64,000 bases of DNA from Escherichia coli (GCF_009931435.1 NZ_CP043414.1); one strand, 5' to 3'. Shown: positions 5,396-50,286, counted from the stretch's first letter. A program made the numbers and translations. The notes: generated by a model not told the origin, from the sequence alone.

Positions 5396-6433
5396 ATGAA
5401 CGATGAGATGAAAGGTAAAAGCGGCAAGGTCAAAGTGATGTATGTCCGCAGTGATGATGATTCTGATAAACGTACCCATAACCCGCGTACCGGGAAAGGG
5501 GGCGGGCGTCCAGGAAAATCTCGTGCCGACGGTGGCCGTCGCCCCGCCCGCGATGACAAACAAAGTCAGCCCCGTGACCGCAAGTGGGAAGAGTCTCCGT
5601 GGCGCACGGTTTCCCGCGCGCCGGGTGATGAGACGCCGGAAAAGGCCGATCACGGTGGCATCAGTGGTAAAAGTTTTATTGATCCGGAAGTGTTGCGTCG
5701 TCAGCGTGCGGAAGAAACCCGCGTCTACGGCGAAAACGCCTGTCAGGCACTGTTCCAGAGCCGCCCCGAAGCGATTGTTCGCGCCTGGTTTATTCAGAGC
5801 GTAACGCCACGTTTTAAAGAAGCATTGCGCTGGATGGCGGCAAACCGCAAAGCGTATCATGTGGTGGATGAAGCGGAACTGACCAAAGCGTCAGGCACGG
5901 AACATCACGGCGGCGTTTGCTTCCTGATCAAAAAGCGTAACGGTACAACCGTGCAGCAGTGGGTAAGTCAGGCAGGTGCGCAGGATTGTGTACTGGCACT
6001 GGAAAACGAATCTAACCCGCATAACCTGGGTGGCATGATGCGCAGTTGCGCGCACTTCGGCGTGAAAGGCGTCGTGGTGCAGGATGCGGCGTTGCTGGAA
6101 TCCGGTGCGGCTATCCGTACCGCAGAAGGCGGTGCAGAGCATGTTCAGCCGATTACTGGCGACAACATTGTTAACGTGCTGGATGACTTCCGCCAGGCGG
6201 GTTACACCGTAGTGACCACCTCCAGCGAGCAGGGTAAACCGCTGTTCAAAACCAGTCTGCCAGAGAAAATGGTGCTAGTGCTGGGTCAGGAATATGAAGG
6301 GTTACCGGATGCCGCACGCGATCCGAACGATTTGCGCGTGAAGATTGATGGTACGGGCAACGTTGCCGGGCTAAATATCTCTGTTGCAACCGGCGTTTTG
6401 CTTGGTGAATGGTGGCGTCAGAATAAAGCCTGA
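5396..6433 (+). CDS. yfiF: SpoU/TrmH-family RNA 2'-O-methyltransferase with basic low-complexity N-terminal extension
   Basis: ORF track 370 aa; start moved to ATG 5396 ([14 protein letters not shown], 345 aa); C-terminal SpoU-like region, N-terminal K/R/G/D-rich ~95 aa. Confidence 0.8.
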
Positions 6434-8501: not shown

Positions 8502-8603
8502 TTGTTATCTCCTCTGTTTTGGTAGACAGTACCCGACACAAAACATTTAAAAAAATGAATGTTTTCACATTCTAAATTCGATATTTTCGATAGGTTTGGA
8601 GTT

Positions 8604-9485
8604 ATGGATCTGCGCCGTTTTATTACGCTTAAAACCGTGGTGGAAGAGGGTTCCTTTTTGCGAGCTTCGCAAAAATTGTGTTGCACACAATCGACGGTGA
8701 CTTTTCATATTCAGCAGCTTGAACAGGAGTTCTCAGTACAATTGTTTGAGAAAATTGGCCGACGGATGTGCCTCACTCGCGAAGGCAAAAAGTTGCTGCC
8801 GCACATCTATGAACTCACCAGAGTGATGGATACGCTTCGTGAGGCTGCCAAAAAAGAGTCTGATCCGGACGGAGAACTGCGCGTTGTTTCAGGCGAAACG
8901 CTGCTCTCTTACCGAATGCCGCAGGTGTTGCAGCGTTTTCGGCAACGTGCACCAAAAGTGCGTTTATCACTGCAGTCGCTGAACTGTTACGTGATCCGTG
9001 ATGCTCTACTGAATGATGAGGCCGACGTCGGTGTTTTTTATCGCGTAGGAAATGATGATGCTCTGAATCGACGAGAATTGGGTGAACAATCGCTGGTGCT
9101 GGTGGCTTCACCGCAAATTGCAGATATCGATTTTACCCAGCCGGGAAGACATAACGCCTGTAGTTTTATTATCAACGAACCGCAATGTGTCTTCCGGCAG
9201 ATATTTGAGAGCACGCTGCGCCAGCGGCGGATCACGGTGGAAAATACCATTGAGCTTATAAGTATCGAAAGCATAAAGCGTTGTGTCGCGGCGAATATCG
9301 GAGTTAGCTATCTGCCGCGTTTTGCGGTGGCAAAAGAGTTGGAGTGCGGAGAATTAATCGAATTGCCTTTTGGCGAACAGTCGCAGACCATTACGGCAAT
9401 GTGCGCACACCATGCCGGGAAAGCGGTTAGCCCGGCGATGCACACTTTTATTCAGTGTGTTGAAGAGTGTTTTTTGCCGGGATAA
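8604..9485 (+). CDS. yfiE: LysR-family transcriptional regulator
   Basis: ORF track 308 aa; start at ATG 8604 (MDLRRFITLKTVVEEGSF, 293 aa); N-terminal wHTH, divergent from eamB. Confidence 0.85.
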   Translation: MDLRRFITLKTVVEEGSFLRASQKLCCTQSTVTFHIQQLEQEFSVQLFEKIGRRMCLTREGKKLLPHIYELTRVMDTLREAAKKESDPDGELRVVSGETLLSYRMPQVLQRFRQRAPKVRLSLQSLNCYVIRDALLNDEADVGVFYRVGNDDALNRRELGEQSLVLVASPQIADIDFTQPGRHNACSFIINEPQCVFRQIFESTLRQRRITVENTIELISIESIKRCVAANIGVSYLPRFAVAKELECGELIELPFGEQSQTITAMCAHHAGKAVSPAMHTFIQCVEECFLPG

Positions 9486-9543
9486 AAATAATGCCGGGCT
9501 TAAACCCGGCACCCAACTTGTCGACGAAGTGCGTTTTGTTCAT

Positions 9544-9641
9544 GCCGGATGCGGCGTGAACGCCTTATCCGGCCTACAAGATCGTGCAAATTCAATATAT
9601 TGCATGAGCCATGTAGGCCTGATAAGCGTAGCGCATCAGGC
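9544..9641. repeat. REP doublet (BIME): two inverted REP copies
   Basis: GCCGGATGCGGCGTGAACGCCTTATCCGGCCTAC (9544-9577) and inverted GTAGGCCTGATAAGCGTAGCGCATCAGGC (9613-9641). Confidence 0.85.
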
Positions 9642-9693
9642 AGTTTTGCGTTTGCCAGCACTTTTAATTCCGGGCTTAAACCCGGAATTAAGA

Positions 9694-11028
9694 TCACTCT
9701 TCTGTCGTTTGCGGTGGTACGCCTGTTCCGCTTGGTTTGCGTCGCTTACCAATATTTTTGGTATCGCGATGGCGTTTTTTCACCCGTGGCTTCTCTTTCT
9801 CTTTAGCCTTTTTCTTCTCGGCGCGTTTTGCCAGTACTTTCTTCGATGGCTTGCCGGTCTGCTTTTCGCTTGGCGCACGCGTTTTCGGGCGTAACTCATC
9901 AATAACGCGAGCTTTAATTGGCTCTTCAATATAGCGGCCTACTTTGCCCAGCAGCAGATGGTCATGAGCTTCAACCAGTGAAATCGCGGTTCCCTTACGA
10001 CCAGCGCGAGCAGTACGTCCGATACGGTGTAAATAAGTATCGCCACTGCGTGGCATATCGAAGTTAAAGACATGGCTGACATCCGGAATGTCGATACCGC
10101 GCGCGGCAACATCGGTGGCAACCAGTACGTTTACGCGACCTTCGGTCAGACGCTTGATCGCTTCGTTACGCTTGCCTTGTACCATCTCACCTTCGAGATA
10201 GCAGTTGTTGATGCCCGCTTCGCGCAACCAGTTTGCCAGTTCATGCACACGCTCACGCTTACGCACAAATACAATTGAGCGGGTCGCTTCCGGTTGTTTT
10301 AACAGATGCACCAGTAATGCGGTTTTATGTTCCAGGTCATCGGCGCGGTAATACCACTGATGAATTTTTTTGCGCTCACGGGTGGATGGATTCGCAGAAA
10401 CTTCCACCGGATCTTCAAGCAGACGCTCGGCAAAATCCTGAATGGCATCGCCTTCAAGCGTTGCCGAGAAGAGCAGGGTCTGTTTACGCCAGCGCGTTTC
10501 GCCCGCAATATGTTCGATATCCTGAGCAAAACCCATATCCAGCATTCGGTCTGCTTCGTCGAGGATCAGCGTTTCAACCGCGCGGCAATCGAAGTTCTCT
10601 TCTTTTATGTATTGCAGCAGACGTCCGGTCGTGGCAACCACGATATCCTGGTTTTCGCTGAATACTTCCGCGTGGTTCATATAGGCTACGCCGCCGGTGA
10701 TGGTGGCGATATCCAGATGCGTATGTTTCGCCAGTTCGCGGGCATGATCGGCCACCTGCATTGCCAGTTCTCGAGTCGGGGTGAGGATCAAAATACGCGG
10801 CGGACCGGATTTCTTTCGGGGGAAATCGAGCAGGTGCTGCAACGCTGGCAGCAGATACGCCGCCGTTTTACCGGTGCCTGTCGGCGCAGAACCGAGTACA
10901 TCACGGCCATCGAGCGCAGGCGGAATGGCGGCAGCCTGAATGGCGGTCGGGCGAGTGAAACCTTTATCCTGGAGGGCTTCCAGCAGGCTTTCGTCGAGTT
11001 CAAGTTCGGAAAAAGTCGTTACAGTCAT
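9694..11028 (-). CDS. srmB: ATP-dependent DEAD-box RNA helicase
   Basis: 444 aa; Q-motif, [10 protein letters not shown] Walker [19 protein letters not shown] box, lysine-rich C-terminal tail. Confidence 0.95.
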
Positions 11029-32411: not shown

Positions 32412-32452
32412 GCCCGGATGTGGCATTCACGCCGCATCCGGCATTAAACGCC
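32412..32452. repeat. REP-like palindrome downstream of purL
   Basis: GCCCGGATGTGGCATTCACGCCGCATCCGGC; resembles a degenerate single REP. Confidence 0.4.
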
Positions 32453-38276: not shown

Positions 38277-38554
38277 ATAAAAAATAGCCCTGCAATGTAA
38301 ATGGTTCTTTGGTGTTTTTCATGAAGAATGTGATGAAGTGAAAAATTTGCATCACAAACCTGAAAAGAAATCCGTTTACGGTTGCAAGCTCTTTATTCTC
38401 CAAAGCCTTGCGCAGACTGAAGGTAATCGTTTGCGTAAATTCCTTTGTCAAGACCTGTTATCGCACAATGATTCGGTTATACTGTTCGCCGTTGTCCAAC
38501 AGGACCGCCTATAAAGGCCGAAAATTTTATTGTTAGCTGAGTCAGGAGATGCGG

Positions 38555-39808
38555 ATGTTAAAGCGTGAAATGAACATTGCCGATTATGATGCCGAACTGT
38601 GGCAGGCTATGGAGCAGGAAAAAGTACGTCAGGAAGAGCACATCGAACTGATCGCCTCCGAAAACTACACTAGCCCGCGCGTAATGCAGGCGCAGGGTTC
38701 TCAGCTGACCAACAAATATGCTGAAGGTTATCCGGGCAAACGCTACTACGGCGGTTGCGAGTATGTTGATATCGTTGAACAACTGGCGATCGATCGCGCG
38801 AAAGAACTGTTCGGCGCTGACTACGCTAACGTCCAGCCGCACTCCGGCTCCCAGGCGAACTTTGCGGTCTACACCGCGCTGCTGGAACCCGGCGACACCG
38901 TTCTGGGTATGAACCTGGCGCATGGCGGTCACCTGACTCACGGTTCTCCGGTTAACTTCTCCGGTAAACTGTACAACATCGTTCCTTACGGTATCGATGC
39001 TACCGGTCATATCGACTACGCCGATCTGGAAAAACAAGCCAAAGAACACAAGCCGAAAATGATCATCGGTGGCTTCTCTGCATATTCCGGCGTGGTTGAC
39101 TGGGCGAAAATGCGTGAAATCGCTGACAGCATCGGTGCTTACCTGTTCGTTGATATGGCGCACGTTGCGGGACTGGTCGCTGCTGGCGTCTACCCGAACC
39201 CGGTTCCTCATGCTCACGTAGTGACTACCACCACTCACAAAACCCTGGCGGGTCCGCGCGGCGGCCTGATCCTGGCGAAAGGCGGTAGCGAAGAACTGTA
39301 CAAAAAACTGAACTCTGCCGTTTTCCCTGGTGGTCAGGGCGGCCCGTTGATGCACGTAATCGCTGGTAAAGCGGTTGCTCTGAAAGAAGCGATGGAGCCT
39401 GAGTTCAAAACTTACCAACAGCAGGTCGCGAAAAACGCTAAAGCGATGGTAGAAGTATTCCTGGAGCGCGGTTACAAAGTGGTTTCCGGCGGTACTGATA
39501 ACCACCTGTTCCTGGTTGATCTGGTTGATAAAAACCTGACCGGTAAAGAAGCTGACGCCGCTCTGGGCCGTGCTAACATCACCGTCAACAAAAACAGCGT
39601 ACCGAACGATCCGAAGAGCCCGTTTGTAACCTCCGGTATTCGCGTGGGTACTCCGGCGATTACACGTCGTGGCTTTAAAGAAGCCGAAGCGAAAGAACTG
39701 GCTGGCTGGATGTGTGACGTGCTGGACAGCATCAATGATGAAGCCGTTATCGAGCGCATCAAAGGTAAAGTTCTCGACATCTGCGCACGTTATCCGGTTT
39801 ACGCATAA
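38555..39808 (+). CDS. glyA: Serine hydroxymethyltransferase
   Basis: Start at ATG 38555 ([22 protein letters not shown], 417 aa); PLP-lysine motif [14 protein letters not shown]. Confidence 0.96.
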
Positions 39809-39847
39809 GCGAAACGGTGATTTGCTGACAATGTGCTCGTTGTTCAT

Positions 39848-39944
39848 GCCGAATGCGGCGTGAACGCCTTATCCGGCCTACAAATTATTGCAAATTCAAG
39901 ATATTGCAATCTCCGTGTAGACCTGATAAGCGTAGCGCATCAGG
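39848..39944. repeat. REP doublet (BIME) between convergent glyA and yphH
   Basis: GCCGAATGCGGCGTGAACGCCTTATCCGGCCTAC (39848-39891) and inverted GTAGACCTGATAAGCGTAGCGCATCAGG (39917-39944). Confidence 0.8.
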
Positions 39945-40005
39945 TAATTTTTCGTTTGTGATCATCAAGGCTTCCTTAGGGAAGCCTTGTTACGTTATCG
40001 CGTCA

Positions 40006-50256: not shown

Positions 50257-50286
50257 GCCGGATAAGGCGTTCACGCCGCATCCGGC
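50257..50286. repeat. Single REP element between convergent yphB and yphA
   Basis: GCCGGATAAGGCGTTCACGCCGCATCCGGC. Confidence 0.7.

What the first reader, a model, noticed from the sequence alone, without database searches (positions are those of the whole stretch)
9486..9693. REP doublet flanked by a 16-bp direct repeat that is itself a hairpin
The yfiE-srmB convergent spacer has a BIME (two inverted REPs, 9544-9641) bracketed by identical copies of CCGGGCTTAAACCCGG at 9494-9509 and 9670-9685. Each copy is a palindrome placed right after a stop codon (yfiE at 9485; srmB at 9694 on the other strand), so they may act as the two terminators. Identical 16-mers flanking a REP cluster also resemble a duplicated target or a composite repeat unit, which is not a classic REP/BIME feature.
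Basis: seen in the sequence. Interest (0 to 1): 0.35.

Follow-up and report, generated by a model that had tools for sequence, protein, structure and literature searches.

The report
BIME-1 insertion that duplicated a terminator hairpin
The two identical 16-mers are the two copies of one transcription-terminator hairpin that was duplicated when a REP-type repeat (a BIME-1) inserted between yfiE and srmB, and the same whole-hairpin duplication flanks about 40% of the BIME-1 copies I sampled, giving an insertion footprint for a repeat family whose way of spreading is still unsettled.

Summary
CCGGGCTTAAACCCGG occurs exactly at 9494-9509 and 9670-9685. The repeat is really 23 nt, and its only two differences form a compensating base pair.

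Between the copies lies a complete BIME-1: Y REP, an IHF-site linker, Z1 REP, and two outer arms that are imperfect terminal inverted repeats.

Among 5,426 E. coli genomes, 2,524 carry this filled allele. Another 2,459 carry a 176-bp-shorter allele with one hairpin, which is srmB's intrinsic terminator. A more distant relative is also empty. The 16-mer is specific to this locus and is not a repeat family.

The pattern is general:
- Of 66 complete BIME-1 copies from four Enterobacteriaceae genomes plus this window, 26 are flanked by a direct duplication of a locus-specific stem-loop (mismatched-flank null about 2%).
- In 17 of 19 clean cases the duplicated unit is exactly one whole stem-loop of 15-22 nt.
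- It abuts constant element ends and sits between an A-tract and a T-tract.
- Younger elements keep the duplication more often.
- At two other loci, different lineages carry BIME-1 in opposite orientations at the same hairpin.

So BIME-1 behaves like a MITE that targets terminator hairpins. The enzymology (RAYT, cuts at the hairpin feet) is inferred. I found no description of this footprint in the papers I could read, but key 1990s papers were not available.

The parts
8559..9485 (+). yfiE (LysR-family regulator) coding sequence, stop TAA at 9483-9485
   Evidence: ORF list; RefSeq annotation of matching genomes
9484..9491 (-). A-rich tract on the + strand, which is the U-tract (AUUAUUUUUAU) of srmB's intrinsic terminator on the - strand
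   Evidence: Terminator scan gives tail ATTTTTATCC after stem 9513..9490; the same site is found in the empty allele
9489..9511 (.). Left copy of the duplicated target, TAATGCCGGGCTTAAACCCGGCA. The stem is 9492-9498 paired with 9505-9511. Its sequence is identical to the single hairpin of empty-site alleles. Together with the U-tract it is the working srmB terminator
9512..9543 (+). Left outer arm of BIME-1 (the 'A' motif, left terminal inverted repeat): CCCAACTTGTCGACGAAGTGCGTTTTGTTCAT. It is a diverged copy of the consensus TCAGATTGCTGACAAAGTGCGCTTTGTTCAT
   Evidence: Alignment with other BIME-1 copies; terminal profiles
9544..9577 (+). Y-type REP (palindromic unit): GCCGGATGCGGCGTGAACGCCTTATCCGGCCTAC
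9578..9612 (+). L linker containing the IHF-site-like AATTCAATATATTGCA at 9589-9604. Rfam family ES036 (CssrF) matches 9578-9620
   Evidence: the L linker and its IHF site in BIME-1 are described in PMC3333891
9613..9642 (+). Z1-type REP in inverted orientation: GTAGGCCTGATAAGCGTAGCGCATCAGGCA
   Evidence: (inverted repeat I2)
9643..9664 (+). Right outer arm of BIME-1 (the 'B' motif, right terminal inverted repeat): GTTTTGCGTTTGCCAGCACTTT. The boundary with the right target copy is ambiguous by about 2 nt
9665..9691 (.). Right copy of the duplicated target. The repeat itself is 9665-9687, TAATTCCGGGCTTAAACCCGGAA. The full stem is 9664-9674 paired with 9681-9691, 11 bp. No U-tract follows on either strand. 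It carries a compensated G:C to T:A change
   Evidence: (inverted repeat I3)
9694..11028 (-). srmB (DEAD-box RNA helicase) coding sequence; the stop codon is 9694-9696 read on the minus strand

Best explanation
A complete BIME-1 of about 151 bp inserted at the stem-loop of srmB's intrinsic terminator in the 32-bp yfiE-srmB spacer. BIME-1 is also called a RIP or RIB element. It consists of a Y REP, an IHF-site linker and a Z1 REP, bracketed by two imperfect terminal inverted repeats. The insertion duplicated the whole stem-loop (about 23-25 bp), so one copy now lies on each side of the element.

The A-tract/U-tract stayed with the left copy, so srmB transcripts should now run through the right hairpin and the BIME-1 and terminate at the left hairpin.

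This is the normal footprint of BIME-1 insertion. The element behaves like a MITE whose target is a terminator stem-loop (A-tract, stem-loop, T-tract). Its 'target-site duplication' is set by the structure, being the whole hairpin of 15-22+ bp, rather than by a fixed number of bases.

Mechanism (inferred): the two target strands are cut at opposite feet of the hairpin, probably when it is extruded as a cruciform or exposed as single strands. The element is joined in, and gap filling copies the hairpin on both sides. The REP-associated Y1 transposase (TnpA_REP, also called RAYT) is the most likely enzyme, with IHF bending the linker, but neither was tested here.
For: SHOWN AT THIS LOCUS
- The filled allele equals the empty allele plus 176 bp, and empty alleles carry one hairpin, AAATAATGCCGGGCTTAAACCCGGCATTGAGATTA.
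- Of 5,426 E. coli genomes, 2,524 are filled and 2,459 are empty.
- A more distant relative (L150: srmB 91% and yfiE 86% identical) is empty, with the same 16-mer.
- The K-12 and window alleles share derived changes in the element arms (AACTTGTCGAC, GCCAGCACTTT), so they descend from one insertion.

SHOWN IN GENERAL
- Of 66 complete BIME-1 copies, 21 have flank-to-flank scores of at least 12-14, against a null of 0.6% and 0.14% from mismatched loci; 27 score at least 10, against a null of 2.2%.
- 26 are classed as flanked by a direct repeat, and 25 more have a hairpin abutting at least one end: 16 on the left only, 7 on the right only, and 2 with dissimilar hairpins on both sides.
- The copies abut the constant ends TCAGATTGCTGA... 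and ...CATCAGTCTCA with no gap.
- In 17 of 19 clean cases the duplicated unit is one complete stem-loop of 15-22 nt.
- The base before the left copy is A in 15 of 16 cases, and the base after the right copy is T in 13 of 16. The two element ends match at 13 of 16 positions as inverted repeats.
- The duplication is kept more often by elements close to the consensus: 6 of 10 at 93% identity or more, 0 of 14 below 80% (p = 2.4e-4).
- ymdF-rutG and gudD-barA also have empty alleles with one hairpin. At both, different lineages carry BIME-1 in opposite orientations at the same hairpin.

BACKGROUND
- TnpA_REP acts on single-stranded DNA, cuts at C|T, and can act on both strands of a BIME (PMC3333891). 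Both 3' ends of BIME-1 read TC|T(C/G)A.
Against: - No insertion event was observed. Everything is comparative.
- IS200/IS605-type Y1 transposases, the relatives of RAYT, make no target duplication (PMC3333891), so the footprint is not what the favoured enzyme family normally leaves.
- 40 of the 66 copies lack a recognisable duplication, including the second BIME-1 in this window downstream of glyA. Decay with age is a plausible cause but is unproven for each case.
- The window's lineage is divergent (glyA about 97.5% identical to most E. coli) yet shares the insertion with K-12, while 45% of E. coli lack it. The history therefore involves either later precise loss or exchange of alleles by recombination.
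- The opposite orientations at two loci could in principle come from inversion in place.
- The sample is four Enterobacteriaceae genomes plus this window, not a full census. It was selected through an exact 22-nt Z1 match.
Confidence: 0.85

Rival explanations
1. The filled arrangement (hairpin, BIME-1, hairpin) is ancestral. The empty alleles are precise deletions made by recombination or slippage between the two hairpin copies, and the duplication was not made by the insertion.
For: - Direct repeats of 23 bp do promote RecA-independent deletion.
- The insertion is shared by K-12 and by the divergent lineage of the window, which suggests it is old.
- By my recollection of its abstract, Bachellier et al. 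1997 (Genetics 145:551) described 'excisions of a whole BIME-1'. [quoted passage not shown]
Against: - This explains loss but not where the repeats came from. At every other site the repeat is a different, locus-specific hairpin abutting the same element ends, so the duplication must arise with the element.
- The more distant relative L150 is empty.
- All empty alleles carry the unmutated hairpin, whereas both K-12 copies have diverged. Recent deletion from a K-12-type allele would leave a chimera.
- Opposite orientations at ymdF-rutG and gudD-barA need separate insertions.
Confidence: 0.1
2. The duplication is real and tied to insertion, but it is not made by RAYT cutting at the hairpin feet. 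Alternatives are a polymerase that stalls at the terminator hairpin, copies a BIME-1 elsewhere and returns upstream of the hairpin, or an unidentified DDE-type transposase that recognises the terminal inverted repeats.
For: - BIME-1 has good terminal inverted repeats (13 of 16), a MITE hallmark usually linked to DDE transposases.
- Hairpins are known replication stall sites.
- Y1 transposases normally leave no duplication.
- No paper I could read shows RAYT inserting anything in vivo.
Against: - The junctions sit at the same element nucleotides in many loci and in four genomes, which points to site-specific cleavage of the donor rather than polymerase jumping.
- The duplication length varies from 15 to 22+ bp and tracks the size of the stem-loop, unlike the fixed stagger of DDE enzymes.
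- I know of no IS with these terminal repeats, but this was not searched.
Confidence: 0.3
3. The hairpin belongs to a larger composite repeat unit (hairpin plus BIME) that is copied around the genome as a block.
For: Hairpins to the right of BIME-1 downstream of rhlE and in mgtA-ridA look superficially alike (CCGGGC...GCCCGG), and BLAST extended the rhlE match through the hairpin. In E. albertii locus L045 the unit 'BIME-1 plus hairpin' is repeated in tandem with a 177-bp period.
Against: - The 16-mer occurs only at this locus.
- Flanking hairpins differ completely between loci.
- Empty alleles keep the hairpin without the BIME.
- The tandem arrays are local amplifications.
Confidence: 0.02
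4. The two hairpins are separate terminators, one per gene, that are alike by chance or by convergence.
For: Each lies within 2-6 nt of a stop codon, and both fold stably (-14 to -19 kcal/mol).
Against: - A 16-of-16 identity, or 21 of 23 with a compensated pair, is far beyond chance.
- Only one copy has a U-tract.
- The empty allele serves both genes with one hairpin.
Confidence: 0.01

Closest known systems
BIME-1 (also called RIP or RIB elements) of E. coli and relatives (Gilson 1991; Oppenheim 1993; Boccard and Prentki 1993; summarised in PMC3333891)
   Same: One Y and one Z1 REP in inverted orientation, a long L linker with an IHF site, single copy per site, extragenic, at the 3' ends of convergent genes, about 150 bp, and present or absent between strains. 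This locus is a textbook member.
   Different: None for the element itself. What is added here is that its outer arms act as terminal inverted repeats, and that a whole target stem-loop is duplicated on either side. The papers I could read do not mention this, and one review states that REPs 'do not display MITE signatures' (PMC3184786).
Bacterial MITEs (for example Correia elements of Neisseria, ERIC/IRU, RUP)
   Same: Small, non-coding, with terminal inverted repeats, a flanking direct duplication, many copies, and presence/absence polymorphism. Correia elements also carry a central IHF site.
   Different: MITE duplications are short and of fixed length (TA for Correia, 2-10 bp in general) and are set by a DDE transposase. 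Here the duplication is 15-25 bp, varies in length, and equals one stem-loop.
REPINs mobilised by RAYT / TnpA_REP (Bertels and Rainey 2011; Nunvar 2010; Ton-Hoang 2012)
   Same: An inverted REP doublet that folds into a long hairpin. It is proposed to be moved in trans by a single-copy Y1 HUH transposase that acts on single-stranded DNA hairpins and cuts at C|T.
   Different: The IS200/IS605-type chemistry predicts no target duplication, and none has been reported for REPINs in the papers read. The target preference was described as unknown or 'semi-random'.
CRISPR spacer integration by Cas1-Cas2 with IHF, and casposon integration
   Same: A formal analogy only. The insert becomes flanked by a duplicated, partly palindromic unit of 28-37 bp (CRISPR) or 14-15 bp (casposons), because the two strands are attacked at opposite ends of that unit. 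IHF bending assists in E. coli.
   Different: Unrelated sequences and enzymes. Nothing here implicates Cas1. This comparison rests on my own knowledge and was not tested.
'Insertion with long target duplication' in Helicobacter pylori (Nobusato et al., cited in PMC1643837), and group IIC introns that home next to terminator hairpins
   Same: Precedents for unusually long target duplications, and for mobile elements that recognise terminator stem-loops.
   Different: The H. pylori cases involve genes and much longer duplications. Group IIC introns insert after the hairpin without duplicating it (my own knowledge).

Membership tests
BIME-1 (RIP/RIB) | One Y and one Z1 palindromic unit in inverted orientation | tested here: met
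   Y is at 9544-9577 and Z1 at 9613-9642. The arms are complementary (inverted repeats I2 and I9) and align with other BIME-1 copies.
BIME-1 (RIP/RIB) | Long L linker carrying an IHF-site consensus | tested here: met
   AATTCAATATATTGCA at 9589-9604 is an exact match and is conserved in other copies. IHF binding itself is not testable here.
BIME-1 (RIP/RIB) | Conserved outer motifs (A and B) on both sides of the REP pair | tested here: met
   9512-9543 and 9643-9664 align with the flanks of BIME-1 copies at the rhlE, mgtA-ridA and fepA-entD loci and with the 66-copy consensus.
BIME-1 (RIP/RIB) | Extragenic, single unit per site, polymorphic between strains | tested here: met
   It lies in the convergent yfiE-srmB spacer: 2,524 filled against 2,459 empty genomes.
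MITE (miniature inverted-repeat transposable element) | Terminal inverted repeats | tested here: met
   TCAGATTGCTGACAAA against the reverse complement of the right end, TGAGACTGATGACAAA: 13 of 16, from profiles of 50 copies.
MITE (miniature inverted-repeat transposable element) | Short target-site duplication of fixed length | tested here: not met
   A duplication is present, but it is long (15-22 nt, about 23-25 here), variable, and equal to one stem-loop.
MITE (miniature inverted-repeat transposable element) | A related autonomous IS with matching terminal repeats | not tested
   No IS with these ends was searched for.
REPIN mobilised by RAYT | Inverted REP doublet able to fold into one long hairpin | tested here: met
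   The DNA fold of 9486-9693 is -53.7 kcal/mol, z = -8.3, and the REP arms pair.
REPIN mobilised by RAYT | Mobilisation by the genome's RAYT (tnpA_REP / yafM) | not testable with these tools
   This needs genetics or biochemistry. C|T sites are present at both 3' ends (PMC3333891), which is suggestive only.
REPIN mobilised by RAYT | IS200/IS605-style insertion without target duplication | tested here: not met
   A whole stem-loop is duplicated at 26 of 66 sites.
Rho-independent (intrinsic) terminator | G+C-rich stem-loop followed directly by a U-tract | tested here: met
   The left copy read on the minus strand has stem 9513..9490 followed by ATTTTTATCC. The same site is found in the empty allele.
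Rho-independent (intrinsic) terminator | The same criteria applied to the right copy, and to either copy read on the + strand | tested here: not met
   The scan reported no other terminator-like site in 9200-10000. The tails are GAUCAC..., AAAAGUG... and CCCAAC....
Rho-independent (intrinsic) terminator | Measured 3' ends of transcripts at the site | not testable with these tools
   This needs Term-seq or 3' RACE in filled and empty strains.

The most novel reading that the evidence does not exclude
BIME-1 (the E. coli REPIN) integrates by a structure-guided reaction. It picks terminator stem-loops, both strands are cut at opposite feet of the hairpin, and the whole hairpin is duplicated. Termination is thereby preserved for both convergent genes. 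This would be the first insertion footprint and target rule for REP-type elements. It would not have been described before, and it would be unexpected for a Y1/HUH (RAYT) transposase.
Probability: 0.4. Interest if true: 0.8.

Novelty: new variant of a known kind. Interest (0 to 1): 0.6.

Why it matters
REP and BIME repeats were discovered about 40 years ago and are the most abundant repeats in E. coli. How they spread is still called 'poorly understood' (PMC8266576) and their insertion 'semi-random' (2026 preprint).

A reproducible footprint gives that question a concrete handle. The footprint has three parts: constant element ends, a terminator stem-loop as target, and duplication of the whole hairpin. 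It predicts what a new insertion should look like, what an assay target should be, and what a candidate enzyme must do to both DNA strands.

It also explains two known features of BIME-1:
- They sit at the 3' ends of transcription units.
- They are tolerated there. The A-tract keeps a hairpin on one side and the T-tract keeps one on the other, so both convergent genes keep a terminator, while both transcripts should now extend across the element.

In practice it lets annotators predict empty-site sequences and date BIME-1 insertions from the decay of the duplicate.

Tried and rejected
- **K-12 annotation.** I looked for REP/RIP features at this locus in NC_000913.3. The copy available lists only coding sequences there.
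- **Metagenome scan for the 16-mer.** Of 120 loci, 111 were unrelated chance matches in environmental contigs. This was useful only to show that the 16-mer is not a family, and to recover eight more empty alleles, one filled allele and one more distant relative.
- **Rfam search.** It returned only repeat-derived families: ES036/CssrF on the L linker, and naRNA4 below threshold. There was no distinct RNA gene for the hairpins.
- **Literature.** Nine full-text searches and eleven papers read found no description of a stem-loop duplication flanking BIME-1. The papers most likely to hold one are not in the library: Bachellier 1997 (Genetics), Bachellier 1999 (Res Microbiol) and Gilson 1991 (NAR).
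- **Whether the terminal T and A belong to the element or to the duplicated target.** Individual junctions disagree, so this is left open.
- **Rejected readings.** Chance, two convergent terminators, and a composite repeat unit; see the rival explanations.
- **Not resolved.** Whether the K-12 and window alleles share the insertion by descent followed by loss elsewhere, or by recombination between lineages.

Full report
**1. The observation**

CCGGGCTTAAACCCGG occurs exactly at 9494-9509 and 9670-9685. With up to two mismatches it matches only at these two places (also on the opposite strand there, because it is near-palindromic), against 0.06 matches expected from shuffles. The spacing is 176 nt, and the repeat extends to 21 nt at 95% identity.

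Read directly, the repeat is 23 nt: TAATGCCGGGCTTAAACCCGGCA at 9489-9511 and TAATTCCGGGCTTAAACCCGGAA at 9665-9687. Its two differences are the two partners of one base pair in the stem (G:C to T:A).

yfiE ends at 9485 and srmB, on the minus strand, ends at 9694. RefSeq annotation of matching genomes confirms both gene names.

The window is not K-12. K-12 is 93% identical across this stretch. The window's yfiE and srmB are 93.9% and 95.5% identical to K-12's. Its glyA is 97.1-97.6% identical to nearly all of 5,425 E. coli genomes, and only 17 records reach 99%. It therefore comes from a rare, divergent lineage that is filed under E. coli.

**2. Anatomy**

Between the two copies lies a complete BIME-1:
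- a left outer arm, 9512-9543
- a Y REP, 9544-9577
- the L linker, 9578-9612, with the IHF-site-like AATTCAATATATTGCA at 9589-9604
- an inverted Z1 REP, 9613-9642
- a right outer arm, 9643-9664

The outer arms are conserved at other BIME-1 sites: downstream of rhlE, in mgtA-ridA and in fepA-entD. From memory, these are the 'A' and 'B' motifs of Gilson and Bachellier. PMC3333891 confirms that BIME-1 is defined as y plus z1 plus an L linker with an IHF site.

Across 50 full-length copies the two ends are imperfect terminal inverted repeats. The left end is TCAGATTGCTGACAAA and the reverse complement of the right end is TGAGACTGATGACAAA, matching at 13 of 16 positions. As single-stranded DNA the whole stretch folds far better than shuffles (-53.7 kcal/mol, z = -8.3), and the two flanking hairpins form on their own.

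**3.

Many E. coli genomes have a 176-bp-shorter allele. O157:H7 strain OK1 and strain 2014C-3075 have a 32-bp spacer with one hairpin...GGATAAAAATAATGCCGGGCTTAAACCCGGCATTGAGATTACTC.... All nine further empty alleles recovered have exactly 89 nt between the same anchors, with the same hairpin.

| Allele | Genomes (of 5,426) | Basis |
|---|---|---|
| Filled, intact | 2,524 | cover at least 80% of the filled query |
| Empty | 2,459 | cover at least 80% of the 89-nt empty-site query |
| Other | about 440 | not classified; examples include alleles with IS1397 or IS621 inside the BIME |

Filled genomes cover only 56% of the empty-site query, so the two classes do not overlap.

A more distant relative, metagenome contig L150, has srmB 91% and yfiE 86% identical. 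It is also empty and carries the same 16-mer. So filled equals empty plus one BIME-1 (about 151 bp) plus a second copy of the hairpin (about 23-25 bp; K-12 keeps the longer version TAAT...GGCATT on both sides).

The K-12 and window alleles share unusual derived bases in both arms (AACTTGTCGAC and GCCAGCACTTT, against the consensus AGATTGCTGAC and GTCATCAGTCT). They therefore descend from one insertion.

**4. The 16-mer is not a repeat family**

It is absent from the rest of the window. In about 1 Mb of enterobacterial loci it occurs only in copies of this same locus. A metagenome scan returned 120 loci:
- 9 are the yfiE-srmB locus: 8 empty, and 1 filled that is identical to the window.
- 111 are unrelated contexts with no REP within 300 bp, as expected for chance matches to a 16-mer in a very large database.

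**5. The pattern is general**

I scanned one genome per species for the Z1 REP. These came mainly from E. albertii, Pseudocitrobacter faecalis, a Pseudocitrobacter MAG and a divergent 'E. coli' (SCPM-O-B-8794). I then aligned each hit to a BIME-1 consensus.

Sixty-six copies, including the two in the window, have both ends intact. Comparing the 45 nt to the left of each with the 45 nt to its right gives:

| Flank-to-flank local score | Observed (of 66) | Null from mismatched loci |
|---|---|---|
| at least 12 | 21 | 0.6% |
| at least 14 | 21 | 0.14% |
| at least 10 | 27 | 2.2% |

The matches are direct duplications of a hairpin that differs from locus to locus. Each copy abuts the constant element ends with no gap. 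An example is AAAAA-ACGGCTCCTTACAGAGCCGTT|TCAGATTG...CAGTCTCA|ACGGCTCCTTACAGAGCCGTT-TTTTTTT.

Further properties of the duplication:
- The loops read the same way in both copies, so the duplication is direct and not inverted.
- In 17 of 19 clean cases the duplicated unit folds as one complete stem-loop with at most 2 unpaired end bases. Lengths run from 15 to 22 nt and follow the size of the stem-loop.
- The base before the left copy is A in 15 of 16 cases, and the base after the right copy is T in 13 of 16. The target is therefore an A-tract, stem-loop, T-tract, which is an intrinsic and often bidirectional terminator.
- By class: 26 copies are flanked by a direct repeat, 25 have a hairpin abutting at least one end (16 on the left only, 7 on the right only, 2 with dissimilar hairpins on both sides), and 15 have none.
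- Elements closer to the consensus keep the duplication more often: 6 of 10 at 93% identity or more, 0 of 14 below 80% (Mann-Whitney p = 2.4e-4). This fits a duplication made at insertion that later decays.

**6. Independent insertions**

I built predicted empty sites for two other loci and found them in E. coli genomes.

- **ymdF-rutG.** O157:H7 has one hairpin (CACCGCCGGTAACCCCGGCGG followed by TTTT). K-12 strain DH1 has hairpin, BIME-1, hairpin. The divergent strain SCPM-O-B-8794 also has hairpin, BIME-1, hairpin, but with the element in the opposite orientation.
- **gudD-barA.** The picture is the same: one empty allele, and two filled alleles of opposite orientation. One of the filled alleles has a half-decayed second copy.

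Separate insertions at the same hairpin are the simplest reading. Inversion in place cannot be excluded.

In mgtA-ridA the flanks CTGGGCACGATAGCCCCGATT and CCGGGCATGATAGCCCGGATT are a further example.

**7. What the hairpins do here**

The only terminator-like site in 9200-10000 is on the minus strand. Its stem is 9513..9490, followed by ATTTTTATCC. The empty allele has the same single site. The target was therefore srmB's terminator.

After insertion the U-tract stayed with the left copy. srmB transcripts should pass the right hairpin, which has no U-tract, and the BIME-1 before terminating. This is inferred and not measured. Neither copy scores as a terminator for yfiE.

Both copies still fold stably, at -14 to -19 kcal/mol. 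The stems have been kept through paired changes:
- In the window, and in an E. coli strain with IS1397 (L003), the right copy has G:C changed to T:A.
- In E. coli the right copy shows a stepwise path. It starts as CCGGG/CCCGG. In STEC308 and 2017.18.02CC it is CCAGG/CCCGG, with an A.C mismatch. In K-12 and AMSCJX03 it is CCAGG/CCTGG, with pairing restored.

This fits selection on the structure. It also fits templated correction within imperfect palindromes, which is a mutational and not a selective process (my own knowledge).

**8. Mechanism: what is shown and what is inferred**

Shown:
- BIME-1 arrival is coupled to duplication of a whole target stem-loop.
- The element ends are constant.
- The targets are terminator hairpins.
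- The length of the duplication is set by the structure.

Inferred:
- The two strands are cut at opposite feet of the hairpin. The feet are close together in space if the hairpin is extruded as a cruciform or exposed as single strands. The element is joined in, and repair synthesis copies the hairpin on both sides.
- TnpA_REP (RAYT) is the obvious candidate. It works on single-stranded hairpin DNA, cuts at C|T, and can act on both strands of a BIME (PMC3333891). Both 3' ends of BIME-1 read TC|T(C/G)A.
- Against this, its IS200/IS605 relatives leave no duplication.

I put about 0.85 on 'insertion with stem-loop target duplication' and about 0.4 on RAYT being the enzyme.

**9. Comparison with what is known**

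The element is an ordinary BIME-1, and all of its defining features tested here are met. It works like a MITE: terminal inverted repeats, a flanking duplication, non-coding, many copies, polymorphic. It fails the MITE criterion of a short duplication of fixed length. It fits the REPIN idea in structure but not in the expected lack of a duplication. The topology resembles CRISPR repeat duplication during spacer integration, which is an analogy only.

None of the papers I could read mentions the footprint:
- Ton-Hoang 2012 and Corneloup 2021 call the dissemination mechanism unknown.
- Bertels and Rainey 2011 do not describe it.
- Delihas 2011 states that REPs 'do not display MITE signatures'.
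- A 2026 preprint calls REP insertion 'semi-random'.

By my recollection of its abstract, Bachellier et al. 1997 reported 'excisions of a whole BIME-1'. It may have noted flanking repeats, and I could not read it.

**10. Verdict**

The finding is real. The locus is one clear instance of a general footprint of BIME-1 insertion that appears to be undescribed.

Caveats:
- The evidence is comparative only.
- The sample is modest and was selected through an exact Z1 match.
- 40 of the 66 copies have no recognisable duplication.
- The older literature is unchecked.

Noticed in passing
L003 (NZ_AP022173.1, strain WP7-S17-ESBL-01) and L005 (NZ_CP196308.1, strain ECE218), both at the yfiE-srmB spacer: In some E. 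coli strains this same BIME-1 is interrupted by an insertion sequence. One strain has IS1397 (IS3 family, frameshifted) and another has an IS621-family (IS110-like) element. From my own knowledge, both families are known to target REPs. The IS1397 strain carries the window-type right hairpin (TTCCGGG...CCCGGAA).
   Followed up: partly
window 39817-39962 (hairpin at 39967-39988): A second BIME-1 lies just downstream of glyA (stop at 39806-39808). It has a stem-loop (AAGGCTTCC...GGAAGCCTT) only on its right side, and only 10 nt separate the stop codon from the element on the left. No duplication is recognisable. E. albertii has the same arrangement (L028).
   Followed up: partly
window 9578-9620 (+): Rfam family ES036 (CssrF 'sRNA', RF02751) matches the BIME-1 L linker above its gathering score (48.1 against 37.6). 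naRNA4 (RF02564) matches the Y REP below threshold. ES036 therefore appears to model a piece of a dispersed repeat rather than a single gene.
   Followed up: no
L045 1528-1903 (E. albertii NBRC 107761); also L018 and L016: There are tandem arrays of BIME-1. In L045 three copies are spaced 177 bp apart, with the same hairpin (ACCGACACCTTTTAGCGTCGG) between and around them. This could come from repeated insertion into the duplicated hairpin or from unequal recombination between the hairpin copies.
   Followed up: no
L250/L251 (ymdF-rutG) and L252/L253 (gudD-barA), compared with L091 and L099: At two other convergent spacers, different Escherichia lineages carry BIME-1 in opposite orientations at the same terminator hairpin, while other strains have the empty site. 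This suggests recurrent use of the same targets.
   Followed up: yes
L012, L120, L126 (genome contigs): Contigs carrying enterobacterial BIME-1 sequence are filed in MAGs labelled Oscillospiraceae, Bacteroidales and Bacteroides. These are most likely mis-binned Enterobacteriaceae contigs.
   Followed up: no
whole window (for example glyA 38549-39808, srmB 9694-11028): The window comes from a rare, divergent Escherichia lineage filed as E. coli. glyA is about 97.5% and srmB about 95% identical to typical E. coli. The best match is strain 2020CK-00188 (NZ_ABACVG020000001.1): 100% identical over 9380-9800 and 99.8% over glyA.
   Followed up: partly
window 32430-32442 and 50274-50286 (- strand), 6079-6091 (+ strand), and others: Further REP-like matches to GCCGGATGCGGCG are scattered through the window (17 with up to 2 mismatches, against 3.5 expected). 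I did not examine them for type or flanking structure.
   Followed up: no
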